Made by a program: the position numbers and the translations under genes. 42,335 bases of DNA from a virus (Duplodnaviria > Caudoviricetes), in IMG/VR virus record IMGVR_UViG_3300032320_001165, positions 1 to 42,335 of that record. The stretch is one strand, 5' to 3'. The notes under the pieces were generated by a model. That model saw only the letters and a list, made by a program, of their open reading frames with translations, was not told the DNA's origin and ran no database searches. Below are positions 848 through 41,129 of the stretch, piece after piece. Every line of letters starts with the position of its first letter. The first letter of the stretch is position 1.

Positions 848-1171
848 CTATATTCGGAAACTTTCGCCACACCCACATCTATCACGTTCGTTTGGGTTCT
901 TAAATTCAAAGCCCTCATTCAATCCATTACGTACATAATCAACAGTCATATTTTGTAAGTATACATCATGTTTCAAATCTACTAACACAACAAATTCCGG
1001 TTGTGCATAGTTTATCAACGATATGTCATGTACATATTCATCAACATACTCTAATACATATGCCAAACCACTACAGCCAGTAGTTTTTACACCGATGCGA
1101 ATTCCCACGCCGCCCCGTTTTTCTAATAAGTTTTTTATTTTATTTTTTGCTTTATCAGTAAAGTTAATCAC
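848..1171 (-). CDS. iscA: A-type Fe-S cluster carrier (IscA/HesB family)
   Basis: GVKTTGCSGLAY and C-terminal FKNPN..RCGCGESF signature. Confidence 0.93.
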   Translation of the reverse strand: MINFTDKAKNKIKNLLEKRGGVGIRIGVKTTGCSGLAYVLEYVDEYVHDISLINYAQPEFVVLVDLKHDVYLQNMTVDYVRNGLNEGFEFKNPNERDRCGCGESFRI

Positions 1172-6563: not shown

Positions 6564-8018
6564 TTATTGGAGATTCTTACGAACATCTCTCAACATTGCT
6601 TTTAGCCTATTTCCTTGCACATCTGCAACTACTTTATTAGTGTTGGTTCCGCCCATAGATTCCTCATCGGAAACTACATTAGAACTGGTTTTTAACTGGC
6701 TCATAATGTTATTTGCACTGGGTTGAGGATTATTAGGTCTATAGCTAGTTGCGCCTTCACCGTCTTCCCCACCCTCATCACTAATACGCATAGTTTCAAC
6801 ATTATATTCTAAATCAATCTTCATACCTACACCCGTTGAACTACGACTTTTCATACATTGAATCTGATACTTACCACGCTCACGCATACTACGATTAGTA
6901 AAGATACCAAATACGTTATCTGCCGTATTAATCTTACTGATACCACCTGCAATGTGACTATGGTCAAATTCAATTTCATCAACCGCACTGCGATTTAACT
7001 GACTAGCAGTTACTAACAAGATACCCATCTCTTTTGAAAGATTGCGTAATTCTTCTGCAACATACTTGTCTTTGATAAACTGATCGTTGGGATTAACTTT
7101 AACAGATACCGGCATAACCAAATCCAAGTAGTCAACCATTACAAAGTCAATTCTGATACCAGTTTGAATTTGCACTTCTTTTAGATAAGCACGAATGTCA
7201 TTAACATTACTTTGAGCAGGTAATCCCTTAACACGATATTTACCAGACTTCTTACCAACCATTTTAACACGCAATTCAGTAGTATCAATATCTTTTCTAA
7301 TATCTTTTGTACCCATGCTTGTCAACATCGCATCAGTACGTAGTGATGTTAGTTCTTCTGAAAGTTCTAGGGTAATATAAACACCACTCATCCCTGTTTG
7401 AATCCAGTTCAAAGCCAAGTTCATCATAACCAATGACTTACCTGAACCTGAACCACCAGCAAAAATGTTCAGTTCACCTCGACTCATACCACCATATAGA
7501 ATACGATCCATCTGTGGCCAGCCAGTTGATACTTGTCCACCGTTATTAAAGTATTTGTTAATACGACCTTTAGGGTCGGCAAAGTAATCAGTACCCATGT
7601 CTTTCTGTAGACTGATCTGTACTGCATCTTTAATTAATTTCTCAACAGGACTGAAGTCACCTTTCTCTAACAAATCAGCTGCCTTTAGAATAGCACGTTC
7701 TAGTTCCTGTCGTTTAGTGAATGATTCGAATTCATCAAAGAACCATTCATAATGTCCCTCAGTCATTTCTGGAATAGGTTCAATGTCTATACCAGTTGTT
7801 GCTTTAATTTGTGTAGTATCTGGTAATATTTTATATTTGTCGGTATGCTCTTTGTACATTACTGCCACAGGTCTCAGAGAGCGGTCAAAGTTCTCTGAGT
7901 TCATAATATTCATAACACGTGTATAAAGCTCCGCGTTGGTAATCATCATGCGCAAGAATAATTTTTGTACATCAACAGTATAGTCCAACTGTTTTTTAGA
8001 ATCCATTTGCTTTGCCAA
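6564..8018 (-). CDS. Replicative DnaB-like helicase (T4 gp41-like)
   Basis: Walker A GGSGSGKS, YITLELSE, Walker B VMVDYLD, TASQLNR, TADNVF, KSRS. Confidence 0.93.
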   Translation of the reverse strand: MAKQMDSKKQLDYTVDVQKLFLRMMITNAELYTRVMNIMNSENFDRSLRPVAVMYKEHTDKYKILPDTTQIKATTGIDIEPIPEMTEGHYEWFFDEFESFTKRQELERAILKAADLLEKGDFSPVEKLIKDAVQISLQKDMGTDYFADPKGRINKYFNNGGQVSTGWPQMDRILYGGMSRGELNIFAGGSGSGKSLVMMNLALNWIQTGMSGVYITLELSEELTSLRTDAMLTSMGTKDIRKDIDTTELRVKMVGKKSGKYRVKGLPAQSNVNDIRAYLKEVQIQTGIRIDFVMVDYLDLVMPVSVKVNPNDQFIKDKYVAEELRNLSKEMGILLVTASQLNRSAVDEIEFDHSHIAGGISKINTADNVFGIFTNRSMRERGKYQIQCMKSRSSTGVGMKIDLEYNVETMRISDEGGEDGEGATSYRPNNPQPSANNIMSQLKTSSNVVSDEESMGGTNTNKVVADVQGNRLKAMLRDVRKNLQ

Positions 8019-8976
8019 TTTTCTTCCTTTGCATTTCTATTTTTATTTTGTTCATTGTAGCATTTTGTAGTATGCTAAGTAAAGTAGGCAACTTACCATA
8101 TTTCACTACAGCATCATTAACGTCTTTGATTCCCGGTTCCCAGTCCGGTAAACTAACACTATAACCCAACTCTAATGCTCTATCAATTATTTTAAACCCA
8201 GTTTCGTCAAAATCAGGCACCACAATAATTCGTTTATTAAGTTGTGCTAACAACATTGCCTGATCAGGACTAATATCATCATGCATGACTGCTACGCCAT
8301 CAATTGACAATGCATCAAAAATACCTTCAGTTAATATACATACTTGCCAGTTTTTATCTTGTTTATCTATATTGAATACATAGCCTTGAGGTTGATCGTT
8401 AAGATACTTTGGCATCTTGTTATCTAAAAACCTACTAGTATTACCCACTACCTTACCTTTATATGTATAGGGTACAACTATTCTACGTTGGTTACGATAC
8501 TTGTCATTTGGTGTAACCGTGAATGAATATTTAGTAAGGTCGATCTTACGACTAATCAAATAATCGGTGTATATTTTATGTCTAGGATTAGATGGATCTA
8601 ATTTCTCACCTTTAGGTAAAGGCTTAGCATTAAATTCTAGTGGCGTATACTCTTTCTTTTCCTGTGTGAAATCAAATAAATCTTTATTCTGCAAACTTTC
8701 AAGACTCCAGCGTTGGACTTGTTCGCTATCCGCACCACACCAAATTAAGAATTGTCTAGTTTTGGGTTCGATGATTCTACCCATTGTGAAACCACAACTG
8801 TATCCACAGTTAAAACAATGATATAACCAATTAGTAGTACCGTCAAACTTGATACCACCTCTTCCTCGTGTGTCAGGATTATGACCGCGTGGTCCACAAC
8901 AAATGGCATTGAAGCTAGTCCAGCCACTAGTAGTTTGTTTTTTTCTACCGGGAATTAAAGAGAGTATATCAAACAT
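7996..8976 (-). CDS. DNA primase (T4 gp61-like): Zn-binding domain plus TOPRIM
   Basis: CC..HCFNCG zinc ribbon, TEGIFDAL, PDFDETG (DxD), KDVND. Start moved to MFDILS because a promoter occupies 8984-9012. Confidence 0.9.
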   Translation of the reverse strand: MFDILSLIPGRKKQTTSGWTSFNAICCGPRGHNPDTRGRGGIKFDGTTNWLYHCFNCGYSCGFTMGRIIEPKTRQFLIWCGADSEQVQRWSLESLQNKDLFDFTQEKKEYTPLEFNAKPLPKGEKLDPSNPRHKIYTDYLISRKIDLTKYSFTVTPNDKYRNQRRIVVPYTYKGKVVGNTSRFLDNKMPKYLNDQPQGYVFNIDKQDKNWQVCILTEGIFDALSIDGVAVMHDDISPDQAMLLAQLNKRIIVVPDFDETGFKIIDRALELGYSVSLPDWEPGIKDVNDAVVKYGKLPTLLSILQNATMNKIKIEMQRKKIGKANGF

Positions 8977-9025
8977 CTGTGTTATGATAACACAATTGTC
9001 ATACGAAAGCAATAGTCTTGGTCAA

Positions 9026-9860: not shown

Positions 9861-10241
9861 ATGATTTCAAACGAATTCTTCAACAAACTAACGCAAAATC
9901 ACCCATTTATCACAGTCTGTTCCTATGCAGGACAAGATTATGTTGGTATAGTACAAAATAGGGATGATATTGTTACCACTATCTACGATTACGGATCAAT
10001 AATAGATCAGGTACTGCGTGATAGGTTCTTAGAGTTAGGAGATATTTGGTGGTGGGAATCTAATCGTTTAGTACCTATCAACATGTTTTTAAAGGATGAT
10101 TGGTCTATGTTTAGACCCTATTTAAGAACGTTCAACAATAAAAGTCTTACTGTAGTTCACGGTCCAATATGTAGTATGTTAGAGTTAGCAAAGCGCAAGA
10201 GTAAGCGCAAATCAATTACTTTGGTCAAGCGTCTTAGCTGA
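9861..10241 (+). CDS. Conserved-looking phage hypothetical protein
   Basis: Fills the gap between minus-strand genes; ATAAATA at 9835-9841 on the plus strand. Confidence 0.75.
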   Translation: MISNEFFNKLTQNHPFITVCSYAGQDYVGIVQNRDDIVTTIYDYGSIIDQVLRDRFLELGDIWWWESNRLVPINMFLKDDWSMFRPYLRTFNNKSLTVVHGPICSMLELAKRKSKRKSITLVKRLS

Positions 10242-10805
10242 TTCTGCTAACAAGTTCATGTGTACTACCACTAAGTGAGCATATGCACAGGAATGGCTAC
10301 GCTTGAATGTATACCCATCTGAATCTTTATCCCAAACAGTCTTTGCAACTTCTTTCCAAGATAGCCCAATCAAATGTTTTTTTGCAGGCCGAATAACTGC
10401 TAGAAACATTGCTAGTCTAGGAATGCTATCAATAGGTTCAGGCATCTTTCGCATACTTTGATAGTGATTACTTAAGTGTATGAGCTTCTCAACAAAAATT
10501 TTATCATTTAACTTAGCCCAATCAGGGTCACGCATCAAACTTATTAGATGTTCTTCGTCACGTATCTTATCATATACATGTACATTCAAAAAATCCAATT
10601 TAATATAACCACGTTGTTCTGCCACAGTATAATCAAGTGTAGACATTTCGTTAATAGCATCGTATGGAATGTCGGTTACATATATACCAGTTGAATGTTT
10701 ACGCATAGGAGTTACTTTCCTCATTGCGGCTGGAACATGTTTGATATGTTGTAATATATTGTCTCTGTTGCCAAAGTCAATGTCAATGTCACTATTGAAT
10801 TTCAT
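10212..10805 (-). CDS. Miniature DNA polymerase III alpha (DnaE)-like catalytic core
   Basis: SDIDIDF, RKHSTGIYV, GYIKLDFL, LAVIRPA and GYTFKRSHSCAYA correspond, in order, to DnaE PD(I/F)DxDF, HAGGVV, GLxKxDFL, ALxRPG and GYxFNKSHxxAYA. Confidence 0.85.
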   Translation of the reverse strand: MKFNSDIDIDFGNRDNILQHIKHVPAAMRKVTPMRKHSTGIYVTDIPYDAINEMSTLDYTVAEQRGYIKLDFLNVHVYDKIRDEEHLISLMRDPDWAKLNDKIFVEKLIHLSNHYQSMRKMPEPIDSIPRLAMFLAVIRPAKKHLIGLSWKEVAKTVWDKDSDGYTFKRSHSCAYAHLVVVHMNLLAESAKTLDQSN

Positions 10806-11353
10806 CGGGTTACTAATTCTGCTTTAATTAATTTCATATATGCTTGTTGCACTACAACAGCCTGACGCTCTGCATCTTCCACTGCTCTGTGACTTGTGAT
10901 ATGTCCGTCTGCTTTAAGTTTAACACCAGTAATATCATAGATAGTTCGTGTGTCTCTTATATTCCAGAAGTTCCAAGGAGGCAACTGTTTAAAATTTCTC
11001 CATGCACTCTCCATTACAACAATGTCAAAACTTGCACCGTTACTCCATACCTTACCATTGTTATACTTCCAGCACCACTTGTATAATGTATCCATACATT
11101 CTTTAAACGACACCCTATCTCTATCACCCAATGCTTCTTCTTGTGCGGCTTCACTTTGTGTACTCCACCAACGCAATGTGTCTTCGTTGATAGTTCTATT
11201 AAACAAATCTGTTTGGTCTTCTATTGTCGGACGTAATTCTAATCGTTCAATCATGCCTAAACCTTTAGGATCAAACAATACAGCACCAATGGTAAGTATC
11301 ACACAGTCTGGCCCTGTATCTAAACTCTCAATGTCAATCATTATATCGGCCAT
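10802..11353 (-). CDS. DEDDh 3'-5' exonuclease
   Basis: IMIDIESL (ExoI), WSNGASFD (ExoII), HRAVEDA (ExoIII); start set at MADIMID. Confidence 0.88.
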   Translation of the reverse strand: MADIMIDIESLDTGPDCVILTIGAVLFDPKGLGMIERLELRPTIEDQTDLFNRTINEDTLRWWSTQSEAAQEEALGDRDRVSFKECMDTLYKWCWKYNNGKVWSNGASFDIVVMESAWRNFKQLPPWNFWNIRDTRTIYDITGVKLKADGHITSHRAVEDAERQAVVVQQAYMKLIKAELVTR

Positions 11354-13264: not shown

Positions 13265-13823
13265 CTGTTACTATTTCCGATAATGTTTCTATATCAGCTT
13301 GTTTTAGATTAGGATATTTGTTTGCAAGGTATACTTTTTTCTTGTGACTAGTTACAAATGCTTCACTGATAGCATATAGATTAGCTTCACTTGCCTTAGG
13401 ATAAATCTTCCCGAAGTATTCACGCACATCTTTTTCTTTGGGTGTTTCTTTAAGCTGTGTTACTTTACTAGACAAGTGTGGTAGCCATTGATGAAACTGT
13501 TTTCCTATTCCTGGACTGGCAGCACATAACATTTGCCACTGTAGCTTAGGATGTTTGCTCACATATTCATTGAACAAATGTTTGTTTGCATGGTATTCAG
13601 TACTTGCTAGATAGTAGCTTTGAAGATCACTGCTAGCCTTAATAGCACTCATCCAATGCGTCATCATATAAGGTACGAACTTCTTTTGTTGCTCGTCTGT
13701 TAACCTATCGATATACTCATAGTCTTTTTTATCCAATGCGGCTAATGCATTGAACAAATCAAAATCTATGTTCTCGAATTTTTCTTCTTTAGGTACTGCC
13801 GCTTTTTTAGTTGCCATTATCAA
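13221..13823 (-). CDS. Probable clamp-loader small subunit (T4 gp62-like)
   Basis: DLFNALAALDKK..KKFVPYMMTHWMS..HPKLQW..FHQWL pattern, size and replication-cluster context. Confidence 0.55.
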   Translation of the reverse strand: MIMATKKAAVPKEEKFENIDFDLFNALAALDKKDYEYIDRLTDEQQKKFVPYMMTHWMSAIKASSDLQSYYLASTEYHANKHLFNEYVSKHPKLQWQMLCAASPGIGKQFHQWLPHLSSKVTQLKETPKEKDVREYFGKIYPKASEANLYAISEAFVTSHKKKVYLANKYPNLKQADIETLSEIVTDDEIRQYEKDSGNS

Positions 13824-14320
13824 AACGCCTGTGAATAATCTACAATTTCACAATTTCTGCTAATCTCTTTTACAAAATATACACACCGTGGTTTTTCAGT
13901 GTCATCGATAGGTACGCACAAAAACTGTCCGTTCTTTAATCGAGGTGCATACCAAGTTACGTCATGGTAAATGTCTACGATTTCAATATCCAAGAAGCTA
14001 GGCCTAAATGCTGATAGTGGATTAAATTCATATGCTTTAAATCCTCTATCATTGATGCTAGTAAGAGGTAGTGTTTCTAAATCACCCATATCAGGTTCAC
14101 CGATAAGTATCTGCCAGTCCACCGGCATCTTTACTACTTTGTTACCTATCTTTAGTACTAGTGCAGGACTATTAAATGACTCTAAAAAGATTAAAGGAAT
14201 GTAATGGTAATCTACATTCTGTGGATTGCTGTTATCTAATATAGCAAAACGTAAATCGTCTACCTCATCAGGTAAAGTCTCTAAGTTATAATAAGTATCG
14301 TCAAGGGTTAAAATTCTCAT
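13820..14320 (-). CDS. Conserved-looking hypothetical protein, possible degenerate Hint fold
   Basis: 166-aa beta-rich ORF with its own sigma70-like promoter (14327-14355). Confidence 0.7.
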   Translation of the reverse strand: MRILTLDDTYYNLETLPDEVDDLRFAILDNSNPQNVDYHYIPLIFLESFNSPALVLKIGNKVVKMPVDWQILIGEPDMGDLETLPLTSINDRGFKAYEFNPLSAFRPSFLDIEIVDIYHDVTWYAPRLKNGQFLCVPIDDTEKPRCVYFVKEISRNCEIVDYSQAF

Positions 14321-14332
14321 ATTGTTATTGTA

Positions 14333-15811
14333 TCACTTATACTTAATTTTTTCAACATCAAACGGGTAGTTAGCCTCTTTATAAAAGGTCTTTCGTTGTG
14401 TCAAATGACGTTTGGCAAACTTACAACTACTAGTGATATCCCAAATATTCACAAAGTCTTTGTCTTCTGCTTTACGAATTCCTCGTCCGATACTTTGAAT
14501 AACTCGAACGAAACTCTTGCCCGGCTCAATCAATACTACGTTAAAGATCCTAGGAATATTAATACCAACTGCGGCTACACCATAAGTCGCAATGATAATC
14601 TTGTTGGTAGCTGTTGCAATATCATCATATTGTTCTGTCCTATCTGTTGCCTTTGTACCACCTGAAACAAATGCAACAGCGTCTTCGGGTATACCCAATT
14701 GTTCAAGTTTAAGGTGTAGAATCTTACCGGCTTCAATTCTGTCTACTAAGACCAGTGTGTTACCAGTATCTTTAATTCCAAAAATACGTTTGGCAATGCA
14801 ATCCATACGTTCGCTATTTTCAACTAGATATTTAAGTTCAGTTTGATAGTTGGGAAACTCAACTGAATCTTGTAGTTGTAAAATGTTAACATGACAATTG
14901 CTTAGTACACCTTGATCCTGTAACTCACTTGCTGATAGTTTGCCGATAACCGGGCCTAAGCTAACAGTTAAAGACATTGATTCAAACTTAGCTTTAGGTA
15001 TAGTGCCGGTCAATCCCCAACGTAATGGAATGTGACTCATTACACCAGTGAGTAATGTTTTTAATACATCAGCCTTAGCTTGATGAACCTCATCGACAAT
15101 AACACATACTACACCTTCTAAGAAGTCACCTATACCAACTTCAGCCTCACCGGACTTAGTATTCTTAAGCATGTTGCCTAATGATTGCCATGTACAAATA
15201 GTATGTGTCTTATTAAATTCTTTTCTACCACCATAGTATACACCAACATCAAGACCTAAGTTAATATAGTCTGCTTCTGTTTGTGTTACAAGACTAGTAT
15301 TAGGGACAATGACAATTGAACGACCATATTGTTCCATAGTATAACTGAGTGCGGCCGTGATTAGTGTTTTGCCTGCACCAGTAGCAATCTCTTGTAATGA
15401 TTGTGGGTTTTTAAGATAGTTATTTATAATCTCAATTTGATAGTCTCGCAATACAACAGGTTCTCCTGCTTTAGGATGCTTTGCTGGCCATACTTTATGT
15501 TTAAAAGTTTGTTCTGTCACTTCCAAAAAAGAAAAAGAAGTTTGATATGTTCGTGTATCTTCTAACTCAATATCATATCCTGAATTTTCTAGTACCGGTA
15601 AAATCTCAGGTAGCAAGTTGATATAACTTGAACCTCCTAGACTGAAGTAACTGGTTTTTCCATTCCACCTACCTAATCGGACACTTGGCAAATACCTTGC
15701 ACCCGGAACTTCAAATTCAAATAGTTTCATTAGAGCTTTACGCTCTCCTAATTCTAGTCCTTCTATCTTTACATTTACTTCGTCTTTGACGATTATTTTA
15801 CATTGTTTCAT
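14333..15811 (-). CDS. uvsW: SF2 DNA helicase (UvsW-like)
   Basis: LRDYQ, ATGAGKT, DEVH, GLTGT, GINIP, QSIGRGIR. Confidence 0.92.
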   Translation of the reverse strand: MKQCKIIVKDEVNVKIEGLELGERKALMKLFEFEVPGARYLPSVRLGRWNGKTSYFSLGGSSYINLLPEILPVLENSGYDIELEDTRTYQTSFSFLEVTEQTFKHKVWPAKHPKAGEPVVLRDYQIEIINNYLKNPQSLQEIATGAGKTLITAALSYTMEQYGRSIVIVPNTSLVTQTEADYINLGLDVGVYYGGRKEFNKTHTICTWQSLGNMLKNTKSGEAEVGIGDFLEGVVCVIVDEVHQAKADVLKTLLTGVMSHIPLRWGLTGTIPKAKFESMSLTVSLGPVIGKLSASELQDQGVLSNCHVNILQLQDSVEFPNYQTELKYLVENSERMDCIAKRIFGIKDTGNTLVLVDRIEAGKILHLKLEQLGIPEDAVAFVSGGTKATDRTEQYDDIATATNKIIIATYGVAAVGINIPRIFNVVLIEPGKSFVRVIQSIGRGIRKAEDKDFVNIWDITSSCKFAKRHLTQRKTFYKEANYPFDVEKIKYK

Positions 15812-17049: not shown

Positions 17050-18054
17050 TTATGCCTTCATGCAAGTTGCTTTAGCAAGTTCGCGCCAGTTAGCACTAAT
17101 CTTAACTAAGTCAGCAACCTTTAAACACATACGCAAGGACACTTCACGCAATTTTGTATGATTGTCCCAGATGAACGACATAATTTCGTCTGTCTGTTCT
17201 TGTGTAAAATCATAATCAGCAAACAAACCACCATCAGCATCACGATGCACTTGTTTGATACGCAACATTTTGTCACGCTCACTATCAACTGTCAGGTCCA
17301 GAAAGTGACAACGACTTTGCAACGCATCTAAGTGAGGTTGCATCTTGCCAGCTTTTTTTGCATCAAACGATTTGTTTGTAATGAAAATAATTGAGCCGTT
17401 GAAGTTGAAACTATTAGGGATACCTTCTTCACGCAAAATACGTGAATCTTTATTCCAAGAAATTCTACGTGTCTTGCCTGAATCAAGCGCACCTTTCAGT
17501 ACATTGATAGCATCCTGATCTTCCCAGATATCACAATCATCAAAAACAAGAACGTTTTTAGCATCACTAAATTTGTACAACTTAGCAAACAAGCCGATAC
17601 CTGACATAGCACCTTTGACAACTTCAAAGCGAACTTTTTTGCTTGCAAGTCTGTCAAACATACTTGCTTTTTCCATTTGCAAGTTTACACCGTGTGACTT
17701 ACCGATACCTGCAGGACCTGTCACAATCATAGCACGAATATCACCACTGATACATGCCTTAGACATTTCATCAAGTACTGCAAAACGTGTCGCAATACGG
17801 TCCATTGCCTCTACTTCTGACTCTGTTACAGTTTCTTTAACATGAGTAGAGGGCTTGCCTGACAAAAATTCAATAGAATCTTGTTTGTCAACATTCACCT
17901 TAACAGTATCTCCCCAACCGGGGAACTGTCCGTCATTTTTTACTGTCACAAAACCACCTTTAACACCCACTTGATATCCTTTAACAAGAGTGAACACTTC
18001 ATTCTTAACGTCAATTTTACGATAAGAACCTGACTTAATACGAATAGTAGACAT
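17050..18054 (-). CDS. AAA+/P-loop ATPase (early gene)
   Basis: GPAGIGKS Walker A, VLVFDDCD Walker B, FITN sensor, ALQSR arginine finger. Confidence 0.85.
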   Translation of the reverse strand: MSTIRIKSGSYRKIDVKNEVFTLVKGYQVGVKGGFVTVKNDGQFPGWGDTVKVNVDKQDSIEFLSGKPSTHVKETVTESEVEAMDRIATRFAVLDEMSKACISGDIRAMIVTGPAGIGKSHGVNLQMEKASMFDRLASKKVRFEVVKGAMSGIGLFAKLYKFSDAKNVLVFDDCDIWEDQDAINVLKGALDSGKTRRISWNKDSRILREEGIPNSFNFNGSIIFITNKSFDAKKAGKMQPHLDALQSRCHFLDLTVDSERDKMLRIKQVHRDADGGLFADYDFTQEQTDEIMSFIWDNHTKLREVSLRMCLKVADLVKISANWRELAKATCMKA

Positions 18055-24792: not shown

Positions 24793-26340
24793 TTAACCCA
24801 TTACCGCAAAGAAGGGTAACGGAGCTATAAATTCTTCGTGGTCACGCATATATGAATCTAAATTAGAATGGTATTCACTTAACTGCTGTAAAATACGTAC
24901 TATTAATAAGCTGGCCATGACCAAATCATCTGTGTCACCAATCTTAGCTTGAAAACTGCCGCCGGCTGCAATAAAACTTTTTAACTCAGTAATAAGACTA
25001 TGACTATTAACAGTCATTTTCTTAGACTCTATTAATGTTTTGAACTTGGCGCAGGCTGCTAATTTGCTCTTGTTAGTTGTATTGAAACCCTTACGCTTTT
25101 TACCGTTCTCACCCATAAATGTTCCGGGAATGTTTGACTCTCCAAATTCAGCAATAGAAACTAATGCCGCTTCTCCGATTGAGTTTGTCTCCACTGAGTA
25201 ATAGATGTTGTTTGGTTCACCTGTACACTCAACAATGTACTTGGCAATCTGTACCAATAATTTTACTTGAGTAGGAATATCAGTTTTGTTGTGTTTCCAT
25301 TCACCAACTTGTGTTGTAGTGTTGGCTTCAAAAATTTGAATAGCGGCAGGATCACCACCTGTACCTAAACTTGGATCTAATCCAATTGCATATATATTAC
25401 CTTTTGTAGGTTCCTTGTACCAACGAATCTGTCCTTGACGGAACGTTGGTTCTATACCTTCCATATCAATCAATGTACTAGGATTGATAAGTGTTTCGTC
25501 AGCGATAATGAACTCACAACCAATCTCTCGACGGAAACGATCATCGCCTAGTTGTGCTCTCATTTCATTTGCCCACTGGTCATCTCGACCAGGTTGCTCA
25601 GTATAATATGCTCTGTACGCTCTGAACCCGTTTACACCTATTTCAGTTTTGTTACCATAAGCATCTTCAGTTTTGTTAGCACCTTTCCAAATGAACGCAA
25701 ACTGATCCTCATCACTGTTTGGTGTGCTAGTGATAATAGCTTTACCACCAGTAGATAGTGTTGGTGTAATAGCTGTCCAGAATTCTTTAGCAATACTTGG
25801 TCTAACGAATGCAAACTCATCTAGGTATAATAGTGTGATAGACATACCACGACCAGTATTTTCAGTAGTTGTTGCTGAAACAATACGAGATCCGTTCTCA
25901 AAGTCTAATGAACCTTTGTTGTATGTGGTAACACCTGCTTTGATATGATCGGGGCAGTTTTCATATGCATAACGTATACGTTGCATAATTTCTTGTGCGC
26001 CTGTGTACTTGTGTGCGGCAATAAGAATTGTTGAGTCAGGTACGAACATGGCATACCATAGTAAGTATCCTGCCGCTGATGTAGACTTGCCTGATTGACG
26101 AGGCATCAATGATATTGAATAACGATAGTTATGATATGTTTCGATTAATCGTTTTTGATATTCCCACGGATGGTATATCATACTACCCTTAGTAGGATGT
26201 TGAATCATAAAGAAGTTATCCATAAAGTATAGATAACCTGTTTCAGGGTCACAGCACTTAATGAAGTCAGTTAATTCAGTTTCATCCTTAAACTTTGTTT
26301 TAACGTAAGGATTTTTAACTAAGGTAGGGGTATTCGACAT
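24793..26340 (-). CDS. Terminase large subunit (T4 gp17-like)
   Basis: YQ, PRQSGKS Walker A, LYLDEFAF Walker B, ITSTPN, GLDPS nuclease, DDLVMA. Confidence 0.95.
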   Translation of the reverse strand: MSNTPTLVKNPYVKTKFKDETELTDFIKCCDPETGYLYFMDNFFMIQHPTKGSMIYHPWEYQKRLIETYHNYRYSISLMPRQSGKSTSAAGYLLWYAMFVPDSTILIAAHKYTGAQEIMQRIRYAYENCPDHIKAGVTTYNKGSLDFENGSRIVSATTTENTGRGMSITLLYLDEFAFVRPSIAKEFWTAITPTLSTGGKAIITSTPNSDEDQFAFIWKGANKTEDAYGNKTEIGVNGFRAYRAYYTEQPGRDDQWANEMRAQLGDDRFRREIGCEFIIADETLINPSTLIDMEGIEPTFRQGQIRWYKEPTKGNIYAIGLDPSLGTGGDPAAIQIFEANTTTQVGEWKHNKTDIPTQVKLLVQIAKYIVECTGEPNNIYYSVETNSIGEAALVSIAEFGESNIPGTFMGENGKKRKGFNTTNKSKLAACAKFKTLIESKKMTVNSHSLITELKSFIAAGGSFQAKIGDTDDLVMASLLIVRILQQLSEYHSNLDSYMRDHEEFIAPLPFFAVMG

Positions 26341-35576: not shown

Positions 35577-35688
35577 GCTTTATTAATGCAGATAGTCCGG
35601 AAGCAAAAATTTTAACAAACGCATAGCCTATTCCAAATAGTACTACAGCAATAAATGCATATCCCAACATTTCAATTAATTGACTCAT
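35566..35688 (-). CDS. 40-aa membrane microprotein (not in the ORF track)
   Basis: Own translation MSQLIEMLGYAFIAVVLFGIGYAFVKIFASGLSALIKHDD; the ATG overlaps the VWA stop (TAATG). Confidence 0.65.
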   Translation of the reverse strand: MSQLIEMLGYAFIAVVLFGIGYAFVKIFASGLSALIKHDD

Positions 35689-36968
35689 TATTTTGCCTCA
35701 TCATATAATGCAAATGTTCCGAATGGGGGATTTGGATTAGGATCACCGTGAATGATCCATGTCGTATCACAATACTCTGGGTCACCCCATGAACCACAGG
35801 GATATCCATCAGTGAATACAATCAAACGTTTAGGTTCAATAGCATTTTCTTTCAAGTATTCAAAGATACAATCAAAGTCAGTACCACCACCGCCTTGTGG
35901 TTCATAATTTTCAATCAGATCCATATTCTCACTAGAAAAATCTTGTGGGTTATATGTTTGCGTATCAAAACAGAAAATATGTACCTTGTAACCATCAAAC
36001 GCACTCATCATGCCACCGACTTCACCCAAGAATGCCTGTGCTTGTTTGTTACTGATAGAACCACTCATATCAAGTGTAACTACTACATCGATTTCTTCAC
36101 CGGGCGTCATACCGGGCATGATAGCATCCATATGCCAGCTTCTACGTGAAGGACGTGCCCAGCTATAGTCTGTACGAATGCAACTTGTCAGATTAGTCTG
36201 AATCAATTCACGCCAGGGCATAACAGGGTTAGTAGTGTCACGAATCAATCGTTCAACACCTTTAGGCAATGAACCTGCTTCTGCACTTTGTGCGGCACTG
36301 ATAATAGCTTGCTTAACTTCCTGACGAATACGATCCTTTTCTTCTTGTGACAGTTTCGGACGACCTTTACCTTTACCTTCTTTGTCACCTTCTTCGCCTT
36401 CACCCTCACCATCATCACCATCCATGTGATCGTCAAGCAATTGTTCAATCAAATCATCCATAGAAATTCTCTTGACATTTTTCATCAAGTCATCATATAT
36501 TTCTTCAGCAGGTTTACCATCATATTTGGTTTCGTACAAGCAGGGCACAGTAGTAATGAACTCACCTACTTTGTGTCGTTTCAAATCAGCATTAACTGCA
36601 TAGTCATCAGCAATGTTCCAGATTTGCGGGTCACGATCAAGCCTACGACCCATGTGGTCATAAACAACGTGCAATACTTCATGACCAACTAAGAATTCAA
36701 CTTCTTTTGGTTTCAATTTCATAATGAAGCGGCTGTTATAATAAAACTTCTGACCATCAGTAGCCGCTGTACCACACCAAAGATCAGCATTAACCAATTT
36801 CATGCGGGTAGCAAGATTACCAAAGAATGAATGGCGTAGCAACAAACCGATACGTGCAGTAACCAAACGTTCACGTGCTAGTGCATCAATTTTACTATCT
36901 GTAGGCCCGATTAGGTCCTCATATTTTTTACTTCGTGTTTTCTTTGTGGGATTTAGTACTGCACTCAT
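35688..36968 (-). CDS. Metallopeptidase-like (HExxH) plus VWA domain protein (DUF2201-like), partner of the MoxR ATPase
   Basis: TAATDG, HEVLH, MIDAS DMSGS, GGGGTDF, FTDG; start MSAVLN with SD AAGGA. Confidence 0.88.
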   Translation of the reverse strand: MSAVLNPTKKTRSKKYEDLIGPTDSKIDALARERLVTARIGLLLRHSFFGNLATRMKLVNADLWCGTAATDGQKFYYNSRFIMKLKPKEVEFLVGHEVLHVVYDHMGRRLDRDPQIWNIADDYAVNADLKRHKVGEFITTVPCLYETKYDGKPAEEIYDDLMKNVKRISMDDLIEQLLDDHMDGDDGEGEGEEGDKEGKGKGRPKLSQEEKDRIRQEVKQAIISAAQSAEAGSLPKGVERLIRDTTNPVMPWRELIQTNLTSCIRTDYSWARPSRRSWHMDAIMPGMTPGEEIDVVVTLDMSGSISNKQAQAFLGEVGGMMSAFDGYKVHIFCFDTQTYNPQDFSSENMDLIENYEPQGGGGTDFDCIFEYLKENAIEPKRLIVFTDGYPCGSWGDPEYCDTTWIIHGDPNPNPPFGTFALYDEAK

Positions 36969-36994
36969 AATAGTCCTTTGTTGTTTATGTGTAT

Positions 36995-37023
36995 AGTATA
37001 ACACATATCTGATTTATTGTCAA
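36995..37023 (-). promoter_or_regulatory. sigma70 early promoter
   Basis: TTGACA-ataaatcagatatgtgt-TATACT. Confidence 0.85.
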
Positions 37024-37172
37024 ATAGACAATCCACGATAACCTGCATCAAATGCAATCCGTGCATAAGGTAATGCGGATTCAATTCCGTATAAGGTTTC
37101 GGCCTGTGCTTTTGACAGGCCACGGGCTCGGGCACTTTGCCCAATTGCATAAAAATACTTCTTACCTGACAT
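37020..37172 (-). CDS. 50-aa protein, possible Rmf/CrpP-like fold (not in the ORF track)
   Basis: Own translation MSGKKYFYAIGQSARARGLSKAQAETLYGIESALPYARIAFDAGYRGLSI; SD AAGGA; fills the gap exactly. Confidence 0.7.
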   Translation of the reverse strand: MSGKKYFYAIGQSARARGLSKAQAETLYGIESALPYARIAFDAGYRGLSI

Positions 37173-37185
37173 ATAAATCCTTATT

Positions 37186-37217
37186 AAAAAAGGGTGAGTA
37201 TATTTCTACACTCACCC
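37186..37217 (-). terminator. Rho-independent terminator with GAAA loop
   Basis: Minus strand GGGTGAGTGTA-GAAA-TATACTCACCC-T6. Confidence 0.85.
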
Positions 37218-37235
37218 TGTAAAACTAGTAACTAT

Positions 37236-38333
37236 TTAGTTACCAGCTTCCACAATGTACTTACCGTACTTCTTGTGGAATTCATCAAAATTCTTCAACT
37301 GAGTTGGCTCGATTGGCAACTCATAAGTCTTCAATGCAATCTTTGCACCCATCACTACCAATTCAGTTTCAAAATTGTTCATCATGTAGTCAAAGAAATT
37401 TTGAGCCATAACGTGAAAGTCTTTGCTACTAGTTTTCTTTTGAACTGCATCTTTCAACTCATAGCACATACCAATTGTCAATGCATACATTGCTGAGATT
37501 TCTTTCACTGACAAGTCTTTAACTTTACCTGACAGAATTTCACTTGGCTCAGGCATCTTACCTGCAATCTTACGGTGAGCCATAAACTTAACAGCAAGAC
37601 CTTCACCGACTGCACCTGCAATCAAATTGAATTGTGTATCAGTATCAGTGTCTTCATCACTCAACAAGTCAGATACGAAACACCATGAACGAGGTGTTGC
37701 AAACGCACGTGAACTAGACTTACTATCAAAGTCATAGATATCTTGTTTAGCAAAAGACAAGTAACCTACAACGTCTTTGTGAATACCTTTGTTCACAGCC
37801 CATGACTGCCAGCTAGTAAAGTCAGGACGCATTTCCAAGTGAATGAAACGATTAGCGAGGGGCATCGGCATACGATAAGTAACACCTTTGTCACTATCAC
37901 GATTACCTGCGGCAACGATTACAACGTTATCGGGCAATACATACTTACCAACACGGCGATTCAAAATCAATTGATAGCCTGCTGCCTGTACTGCCGGGGG
38001 TGCAGAATTCATTTCATCTAAGAACAATACAACAACTGGGTATTTGCTTGCAAATTCTTCATCAGGCAAATCGATCGGGGGAGCCCAGTCCATCTTACCA
38101 TTATCTTTATTGAAGTAGGGAATACCACGAATGTCAGTGGGTTCCATTTGTGCCATGCGCAAGTCAACTACTGCGCCATTCAATTCCTGTGCAATTTCAG
38201 CAACAACTTCTGATTTGCCGATGCCGGGAGGACCCCAGAGAAAAACGGGTCGTTTAGTTTTAAACGCTTTGAGAATAGATTTACGTGTCTGAACACTGGT
38301 GATTGTATGATTGTCAGAGACTTGCGATGCCAT
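37236..38333 (-). CDS. MoxR-like AAA+ ATPase
   Basis: WGPPGIGKS, LFLDEMN, AAGNR, LANRF. Confidence 0.9.
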   Translation of the reverse strand: MASQVSDNHTITSVQTRKSILKAFKTKRPVFLWGPPGIGKSEVVAEIAQELNGAVVDLRMAQMEPTDIRGIPYFNKDNGKMDWAPPIDLPDEEFASKYPVVVLFLDEMNSAPPAVQAAGYQLILNRRVGKYVLPDNVVIVAAGNRDSDKGVTYRMPMPLANRFIHLEMRPDFTSWQSWAVNKGIHKDVVGYLSFAKQDIYDFDSKSSSRAFATPRSWCFVSDLLSDEDTDTDTQFNLIAGAVGEGLAVKFMAHRKIAGKMPEPSEILSGKVKDLSVKEISAMYALTIGMCYELKDAVQKKTSSKDFHVMAQNFFDYMMNNFETELVVMGAKIALKTYELPIEPTQLKNFDEFHKKYGKYIVEAGN

Positions 38334-40253: not shown

Positions 40254-41129
40254 ATGTACAATATGATAGCTGATGAAATTTTTAAAAGATTTAATAATTT
40301 CAAACTTGAGACCTCGGGCGTATACTCAGTAGAGTCTCTTTGTTGTGGTGTGGGTAAGTCTCTTTTTTCAAAAAACAAAAATCAATCGTTTCTATATAAC
40401 TGTAAGGTGTGCGGGTGTGTGTATAGATGGTATCCCGATATTGAACCACATGATAATCTTAGGCAGCTTATAGAAACTTTAAGTGATATACCTGTAAAAA
40501 ATCAGGAGATAGTAAATACAATTTTTTCAACAAACCACATTGAACCTATTACAAAAAATAACCAATATTTAGAATGTAGGAAACTAGATATATCTGATTG
40601 GTACTTCTATACTTCATCTGATACTATGCTTAAAGATTACCTAATTATACCTGTTAATCTTGAAGATATGAATCAAGGTATGATATGTAGATATATGGGG
40701 TCAAATCCTAATTTGTCTCGCTATATAAATATTATGAACGATCCAATATTATTAGATAATTCTAAAAAAACAGATAATTTCAATCTTATATTTGAGGGGT
40801 CAATTGATGCTTTGTTGTTAAACGGTATAGCAATACTAGATAGTTTTATGACAGAAGATCAGATATCAAAAATAAACAAAAAGAAGAAAAAAAATATTGT
40901 TGTCCCCGATAGAGATAGGGGCGGGAGAAGTATGGCTCTTAAAGCAATTGATTTAGGATGGTCAGTGAGTTTTCCTGATATGCCAATACAGTTTAAAGAT
41001 CCGGCTGAAGCAATACAAGCAGGATTCTGCGATAGAGCTTCGATGAGAAAAAACATATTAAATTCTGTCTATAACGGGAAAGAAGCAAGAAATATACTAC
41101 TCTCTTGGAGAGACTCGGGATATATTTAA
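40254..41129 (+). CDS. Second primase-like protein (Zn ribbon plus TOPRIM)
   Basis: LCCG..YNCKVCG, FEGSIDAL, VVPDRDRGG, LGWSVSFPD..KDPAEA, collinear with the 7996 primase. Confidence 0.8.
   Translation: MYNMIADEIFKRFNNFKLETSGVYSVESLCCGVGKSLFSKNKNQSFLYNCKVCGCVYRWYPDIEPHDNLRQLIETLSDIPVKNQEIVNTIFSTNHIEPITKNNQYLECRKLDISDWYFYTSSDTMLKDYLIIPVNLEDMNQGMICRYMGSNPNLSRYINIMNDPILLDNSKKTDNFNLIFEGSIDALLLNGIAILDSFMTEDQISKINKKKKKNIVVPDRDRGGRSMALKAIDLGWSVSFPDMPIQFKDPAEAIQAGFCDRASMRKNILNSVYNGKEARNILLSWRDSGYI

What the first reader, a model, noticed from the sequence alone, without database searches (positions are those of the whole stretch)
10212..11353. 197-aa miniature DnaE (C-family polymerase core) coupled to a DEDDh exonuclease
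Seen: a complete ORF with its own start and stop holds five ordered DnaE motifs (SDIDIDF, KHSTGIYV, GYIKLDFL, LAVIRP, GYTFKRSHSCAYA), including all three catalytic Asp equivalents. Its start overlaps the exonuclease stop (ATGA). Known: DnaE is over 1000 aa, these motifs span several hundred residues, and PHP, thumb, HhH, OB and clamp-binding regions are also present. Here the segments between motifs are deleted, so this is not simple truncation. Inference: a streamlined Pol-beta-like nucleotidyltransferase, either one subunit of a split polymerase or an enzyme repurposed for template-independent, priming, signalling or nucleotide-modifying chemistry, with a partner nuclease. This is the best candidate here for an undescribed system.
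Basis: partly seen in the sequence, partly recalled or inferred. Interest (0 to 1): 0.85.

Follow-up and report, generated by a model that had tools for sequence, protein, structure and literature searches.

The report
Catalytic half of split phage mini-polymerase
This giant-phage gene encodes the metal-binding half of a tiny two-gene relative of the bacterial replicative DNA polymerase, a family already described from sequence in 2021; it likely pairs with a second half encoded about 40 kb away, and the nuclease next to it is a lineage-limited neighbour rather than a fixed partner.

Summary
In detail: a 197-aa ORF (10212-10805, minus strand) carries five ordered DnaE motifs, overlaps a DEDDh exonuclease by ATGA, is under purifying selection (dN/dS about 0.09) and models confidently as a C-family polymerase core (E. 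coli DnaE 397-784, two internal deletions of about 80-90 aa). It is not undescribed. It is the C-terminal unit of the split minimal Pol III alpha of group 2.2 jumbo phages (Iyer et al. 2021, PMC7824862). The missing GRGS-bearing N-terminal unit (about 170 aa) lies elsewhere in 10 of 11 related records searched, beside a family B polymerase; this contig is a 12%-complete fragment. A cognate N+C pair scores 0.89 against 0.00 for controls, and one natural 375-aa N+C fusion turned up. The exonuclease is a T4 DexA-like enzyme: near the gene in this freshwater clade, but distant or absent in 4 of 4 isolates. Likely role: a distributive, dNTP-selective helper polymerase; untested. The scan found this family before on other DNA (five earlier notes).

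The parts
10212..10805 (-). C-terminal (Mg2+/template-binding) unit of split minimal Pol III alpha, 197 aa (P0001)
10782..10790 (-). codons for D6-I7-D8 (= E. coli D401, D403), each 79/79 conserved
10593..10595 (-). codon for D71 (= D555), third catalytic Asp, 79/79 conserved
10293..10295 (-). codon for H171 (= H760, presumptive steric gate), 78/79 conserved
10802..11353 (-). DEDDh 3'-5' exonuclease, Rv2179c-like/DexA-like, 183 aa (P0002); clade-limited neighbour
10802..10805 (-). ATGA stop/start overlap between exonuclease and polymerase unit
9861..10241 (+). convergent 126-aa gene of unknown function (PHROG 11637), overlapping the 3' end by 30 bp; the most constant neighbour
7996..9012 (-). 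DnaG-type primase, conserved downstream neighbour
6564..8018 (-). DnaB/gp41 helicase, conserved downstream neighbour
14333..15811 (-). UvsW helicase, upstream neighbour in many relatives

Best explanation
The gene encodes the catalytic-aspartate half of a two-gene miniature Pol III alpha, predicted to pair with a ~170-aa GRGS-bearing half encoded elsewhere and likely to act as a distributive, dNTP-selective helper polymerase that extends primers briefly before the phage's family B polymerase takes over. Shown: the fold, the invariant D6/D8/D71, purifying selection, and the separate N unit and PolB in relatives. Predicted: the N unit's GRGSS loop (residues 134-140) packs on the DxDxD strand to complete one active site. 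Inferred: templated synthesis, sugar selection by H171, low processivity (no thumb-region insert, clamp-binding, OB or PHP part) and the primer hand-off role. Identity as the C unit: about 0.95. Primer extension as the specific job: about 0.5. The exonuclease is likely an independent DexA-like scavenging nuclease.
For: Complementary coverage: the N unit maps to E. coli DnaE 278-387 by structure (Z 6.0, rmsd 2.6, 83 aligned) and to 352-392 by sequence; the C unit maps to 397-784 (Z 7.0, rmsd 4.0, 188 aligned). N unit found in 5 of 5 long IMG/VR relatives, 4 of 4 isolates and 1 of 2 further fragments. PolB in 3 of those 5 relatives (2 of 2 complete) and 5 of 5 isolates. Cognate G001 pair: score 0.89, best of 3 controls 0.00, runs agree in at least 95% of contacts, partner pLDDT at least 88; the mark was reached by 116 of 157 solved and 2 of 215 mismatched pairs. 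Natural fusion P0276, 375 aa, hits both unit profiles and aligns across the junction to DnaE 319-417, E 3.5e-6. H171 78/79 and Y/F175 76/79; H760 is the presumptive steric gate (PMC8485763). Primase starts 1.9-3.6 kb downstream, followed by DnaB, in 4 of 4 isolates. Precedent for primer extension by a second C-family enzyme: B. subtilis DnaE (PMC3664799, abstract).
Against: No activity was measured, and I found no bench study. The window's own N unit and PolB were not seen. The complex pass may reflect likeness to solved DnaE structures, and it used a 75%-identical relative. The fusion is a singleton on one 2,415-bp contig and no second one was found. The finger segment holding R709/R710 is deleted, and R390 aligns to an invariant Glu (E165) of the N unit. 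These Arg residues are described as contacting dATP (PMC4374717 passage), so nucleotide binding differs from DnaE. T4-like phages cluster replication genes anyway, so the primase/DnaB linkage is weak evidence. T4 PolB uses RNA primers without a helper (recalled).
Confidence: 0.5

Rival explanations
1. Same N+C heterodimer, but a repair, gap-filling or lesion-bypass polymerase working with the UvsX/UvsY/UvsW recombination system rather than at normal priming.
For: No proofreading domain or processivity parts. UvsW lies 3-6 kb upstream in 3 of 4 isolates. UvsX, UvsY and gp32 are in the window. [quoted passage not shown]
Against: Both units are kept in nearly the same set of phage genera (96 and 96 records), even in a 141-kb phage, which fits a core rather than an optional function. 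This is only suggestive.
Confidence: 0.3
2. A repurposed Pol-beta-fold nucleotidyltransferase: template-independent tailing, de novo priming or DNA/protein modification.
For: Deletions remove about 79 aa after D403 and about 89 aa of the fingers, including R709/R710; R390 aligns to Glu. PolB is already present.
Against: The DnaE residues K553/D555, H511, R639-P640 and the K-S-H..Y helix are all kept. Other nucleotidyltransferases score only as weak Foldseek rows (MenT1, E 0.41), below 15 C-family rows. The steric-gate His argues against NTP substrates.
Confidence: 0.14
3. The 197-aa protein and the adjacent exonuclease form a dedicated polymerase-proofreader pair, as alpha and epsilon do.
For: ATGA overlap here. 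The exonuclease is within about 2.7 kb upstream in 58 of 58 close loci with at least 3 kb of flank and is under purifying selection (median dN/dS 0.06).
Against: Adjacent in only 33 of 76 loci that have it; unrelated genes intervene in G001. PF16473 is absent from Atu_ph07 and PA5oct, and lies 43 kb and 107 kb away in GAP32 and Phosso. Its best solved relative is T4 DexA (8KEL, E 2.1e-6). Relatives occur in 628 phage records, the best of them 45-62-kb phages.
Confidence: 0.05
4. A decayed or misassembled dnaE remnant.
For: Short length; no Pfam hit.
Against: 59 distinct close relatives are 187-203 aa, and median dN/dS is 0.09. At least 7,992 same-length homologs. No full-length dnaE at this locus in 4 of 4 isolates.
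Confidence: 0.01

Closest known systems
Split minimal DNA polymerase III alpha of group 2.2 jumbo phages, C-terminal Mg2+/template-binding unit (Iyer et al. 2021, PMC7824862); PHROG 11778
   Same: Minimal core only; split into N (NTP-binding) and C (Mg2+/template) proteins on distant genes; accompanies PolB in a gp32/UvsW/DnaB phage; 30-47% identical to the Atu_ph07, PA5oct, RaK2 and GAP32 group proteins.
   Different: Uncultured aquatic clade with a DexA-like exonuclease gene nearby. The passages I read mention neither a fused form nor a 141-kb non-jumbo carrier; the supplement (.rar) was unreadable.
Bacterial DnaE/PolC (E. coli Pol III alpha; G. kaustophilus PolC 3F2B)
   Same: Pol-beta-like palm with D401/D403/D555, H760 helix, GRGS loop (in trans).
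   Different: About 365 aa in two chains against 1160. No PHP, no clamp-binding, HhH or OB region; two internal deletions; R709/R710 absent.
B. subtilis DnaE primer-extension step (PMC3664799)
   Same: A second C-family enzyme working with primase and helicase beside a main replicase (functional analogy).
   Different: That DnaE is full length, and its partner is PolC, not PolB.
T4 DexA exonuclease (PDB 8KEL; PMC12153337), for the neighbour
   Same: 3'-5' exonuclease, best PDB hit over residues 1-138.
   Different: 183 aa against 227; substrate and oligomer untested.

Membership tests
Split minimal Pol III alpha, C unit (Iyer 2021) | Maps only to the catalytic/template-binding core of Pol III alpha | tested here: met
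   model aligns to E. coli 397-784 over 188 residues, Z 7.0; PolC Z 9.6
Split minimal Pol III alpha, C unit (Iyer 2021) | Carries the Mg2+-binding aspartates | tested here: met
   D6, D8, D71 each 79/79
Split minimal Pol III alpha, C unit (Iyer 2021) | N-terminal NTP-binding unit on a distant gene of the same genome | tested here: inconclusive
   not in this 42-kb, 12%-complete contig; present 36-53 kb downstream in 6 relatives at 72-76% identity, a distance that falls beyond the window's end
Split minimal Pol III alpha, C unit (Iyer 2021) | Family B polymerase in the same genome | tested here: inconclusive
   no PolB in the window; 2 of 2 complete relatives and 5 of 5 isolates have it
Split minimal Pol III alpha, C unit (Iyer 2021) | Group 2 phage context (gp32 SSB, UvsW, UvsX/Y, DnaB) | tested here: met
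Split minimal Pol III alpha, C unit (Iyer 2021) | Orthology to the group 2.2 phage proteins | tested here: met
   93 of 96 phage records cover at least 80% of the query; same downstream gene order in 4 of 4 isolates. The paper's own accessions for the unit were not seen.
Full-length DnaE/PolC | Single chain of about 1000+ aa with PHP, thumb, fingers, HhH/OB | tested here: not met
   197 aa; no NCBIfam DnaE hit; deletions mapped
Full-length DnaE/PolC | GS motif in the same chain | tested here: not met
   DxD begins at residue 6; 78 of 79 representatives have 17 or fewer residues before it
Full-length DnaE/PolC | Template-directed DNA synthesis | not testable with these tools
   needs an assay
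DEDDh exonuclease, Rv2179c-like/DexA-like (neighbour) | Family score above cut-off and D-E-D-H-D residues | tested here: met
   PF16473 119.7 bits against a cut-off of 27; motifs at 7-9, 110, 155-160
Pol III epsilon-like dedicated proofreader (neighbour) | Obligate co-occurrence with the polymerase | tested here: not met
   PF16473 absent in 2 of 4 isolates that carry both units

The most novel reading that the evidence does not exclude
The two units form the smallest C-family active site, about 365 aa. With the finger arginines gone it is not a conventional replicase but a primer-making or template-independent nucleotidyltransferase serving a PolB replisome. The natural 375-aa single-chain fusion P0276 would let one protein test this directly.
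Probability: 0.14. Interest if true: 0.8.

Novelty: new member of a known kind. Interest (0 to 1): 0.3.

Why it matters
The family is known from sequence, but I found no bench test. It puts a bacterial-type C-family active site inside a T4-type PolB replisome in many jumbo phages of enterobacteria, Pseudomonas and rhizobia. If active, it defines the minimum a C-family polymerase needs and explains a conserved gene of unknown role.

Tried and rejected
Single-sequence searches of P0001 gave nothing in Pfam, the PDB or NCBIfam; only profile and structure searches link it to DnaE. Foldseek for the N-unit model gave no hit at E<=0.001; the second look placed it on DnaE at Z 4.0-6.2 for residues 69-168 only, so its first 68 residues stay unassigned. 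Search for longer forms: none among 243 candidates, and that search missed P0276, so it is weak. P0276 has no locus in IMG/VR. A GRGSS...DxDID pattern scan (120 loci, 20 of 64 parts of the collection) gave long-form DnaE matches and chance matches, and no mini fusion. The closest long contig (L228, 359 kb, 84% to cluster member P0394) could not be searched whole, so the nearest N unit is unverified. Co-divergence test: identity to the window's polymerase correlates with the exonuclease at rho 0.38 (n=47), the convergent gene 0.68 (n=46), primase 0.69 (n=40) and DnaB 0.26 (n=37); inconclusive. The ATGA letters are uninformative alone: 58 of 59 distinct genes start ATGA whether or not the exonuclease is adjacent. 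Binding of the exonuclease to the polymerase was not modelled. The Atlas gave unnamed viral clusters, plus three hits with DNA_pol3_finger (12% of members in the row shown).

Full report
Observation. ORF 10212-10805 (-) is a complete 197-aa gene. Its five motifs follow the order of E. coli DnaE (fetched; positions): D6, D8, D71 equal D401, D403, D555, and H171, Y175 equal H760, Y764. Spacing shrinks from 108 to 29 residues between D403 and H511 (the thumb region; domain limits recalled) and from 121 to 32 between R639 and H760 (fingers). The other two intervals shrink by only 10 and 16. The upstream gene 10802-11353 is a PF16473 DEDDh exonuclease overlapping by ATGA.

Context. The window is an IMG/VR virus record estimated 12% complete. 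It holds gp32, UvsX, UvsY, UvsW, terminase, primase and DnaB, which is a T4-like group 2 replication module. It holds no PolB and no GRGS-bearing unit.

The gene is real and old. 7,992 of 8,000 scored candidates of similar length were homologs, and 376 clusters at 50% identity matched. Of the 150 listed I kept 79 full-length ones and dropped 71 partial matches. This choice favours sequences with the N-terminal motif. In the 79, D6, D8, K69, D71, R139 and P140 are invariant, and D10, H37 and H171 are 78/79. Against 59 distinct close relatives, 8 were usable (50 saturated, 1 near-identical), with median dN/dS 0.09 and maximum 0.13. 96 of 50,697 phage records match, mostly 280-490-kb phages such as Atu_ph07, PA5oct, RaK2 and GAP32. 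The AlphaFold model is confident (pLDDT 93.9, pTM 0.86). Its top seven structural matches are all C-family polymerases, each covering nearly the whole model (Z 6.1-9.6 against 3.8 for the next fold), and Foldseek agrees.

It is half of an enzyme. Iyer et al. [quoted passage not shown] I tested this. PF07733 hit a separate ORF in 5 of 5 long relatives and 4 of 4 isolates. These are 168-177-aa proteins with a GxGRGS motif near the C terminus. One of two more fragments had it. In the six uncultured relatives it lies 36-53 kb downstream on the same strand, and the window offers only 10 kb there. The N unit ends at the equivalent of about E. coli 392-393 and the C unit starts at 397. PolB is present in 3 of the 5 relatives (2 of 2 complete) and 5 of 5 isolates. 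The N unit matches 96 phage records with nearly the same genus counts; I saw 60 rows of each list, so record-by-record overlap is not counted.

Pairing. The cognate pair of G001 (C unit 75% identical to the window's) scored 0.89 against 0.00 for the best of three controls. The runs agree in at least 95% of contacts and partner pLDDT is at least 88; the mark was reached by 116 of 157 solved and 2 of 215 mismatched pairs. The interface includes N 125-142 (the GRGSS loop) and C 5-12 and 168-171. Halves of a split gene can pass by likeness to solved DnaE, so this shows compatibility, not binding. Independently, P0276 (375 aa) is a natural N+C fusion: both profiles hit it (E 9e-31 and 6e-65), and its junction aligns with DnaE 319-417 with only a 3-residue insertion between the two units. 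It is a singleton from one 2,415-bp contig, and no second fusion was found, so an assembly artefact is not excluded.

The exonuclease. Among 80 close loci it was seen in 76, adjacent in 33 and 206-2,161 nt away in 43 (one of these, L013, is cut by the locus end). All 58 loci with at least 3 kb of upstream flank have it. So the linkage is real in this clade but loose; in G001 two unrelated genes intervene. In four isolates a direct search found nothing. The family profile found none in Atu_ph07 or PA5oct and distant copies in GAP32 and Phosso. [quoted passage not shown] The constant neighbours are instead a convergent 126-aa gene (79 of 80 loci, 4 of 4 isolates), primase and DnaB.

Mechanism. 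Shown: fold, residues, selection, co-occurrence. Predicted: a composite active site. Inferred: dNTP selectivity from H171 (H760 is the presumptive steric gate; PMC8485763, passages), low processivity and no built-in proofreading from the missing parts, and a helper role beside PolB. I favour short primer extension before hand-off (0.5), by analogy with B. subtilis DnaE (PMC3664799, abstract) and the primase/helicase linkage, over repair (0.3). A repurposed nucleotidyltransferase stays open (0.14), because R709/R710 are deleted and R390 aligns to an invariant Glu (roles from a passage in PMC4374717).

Novelty. This is a new member of a described family. Literature searches returned no bench study, but the library lacks most subscription papers. 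Passages of two isolate papers only list such genes as annotations (PMC11895373; PMC11242549). PMC7412058 (passages) concerned other Pol III subunits and was not used. Five earlier notes of this scan reached the same family on other DNA; I formed and tested this reading before seeing them and do not count them as evidence. Interest 0.3.

Noticed in passing
P0276 (database protein, 375 aa): Natural single-chain fusion of the N and C units of the mini Pol III; singleton on a 2,415-bp ENA contig.
   Followed up: partly
L303 (OQ508957.1, Alishewanella phage Slickus01, 141,644 bp): locus 13347-13958 and 24797-25309: A non-jumbo phage carries both units about 11 kb apart, plus PolB; the system is not confined to jumbo genomes.
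   Followed up: partly
window 9861-10241 (+): Convergent 126-aa unknown gene (PHROG 11637) overlapping the polymerase unit's 3' end by 30 bp; kept in 79 of 80 close loci and 4 of 4 isolates, dN/dS about 0.04. A better partner candidate than the exonuclease.
   Followed up: partly
   Followed up: no
window 40254-41129 (+): A second DnaG-like Toprim protein (PHROG 47, E 6.6e-16) besides the primase at 7996-9012.
   Followed up: no
window 35688-38333 (-): MoxR-like AAA+ ATPase gene next to a metallopeptidase-vWA gene (DUF2201).
   Followed up: no
window 848-1171 (-): Fe-S cluster biosynthesis (PF01521) gene in a phage.
   Followed up: no
W01, W02, W05: PolB matches fall in two separate reading frames in Atu_ph07, PA5oct and Slickus01 (split or intron-interrupted).
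   Followed up: no
L085, L086, L089, L096-L098: The N-unit gene sits 0.7-1.5 kb upstream of a gene starting with a WxEKYRP motif (clamp-loader-like; label recalled).
   Followed up: no
window 17050-18054 (-): Conserved AAA+ protein (PHROG 1250) with weak clamp-loader similarity.
   Followed up: no
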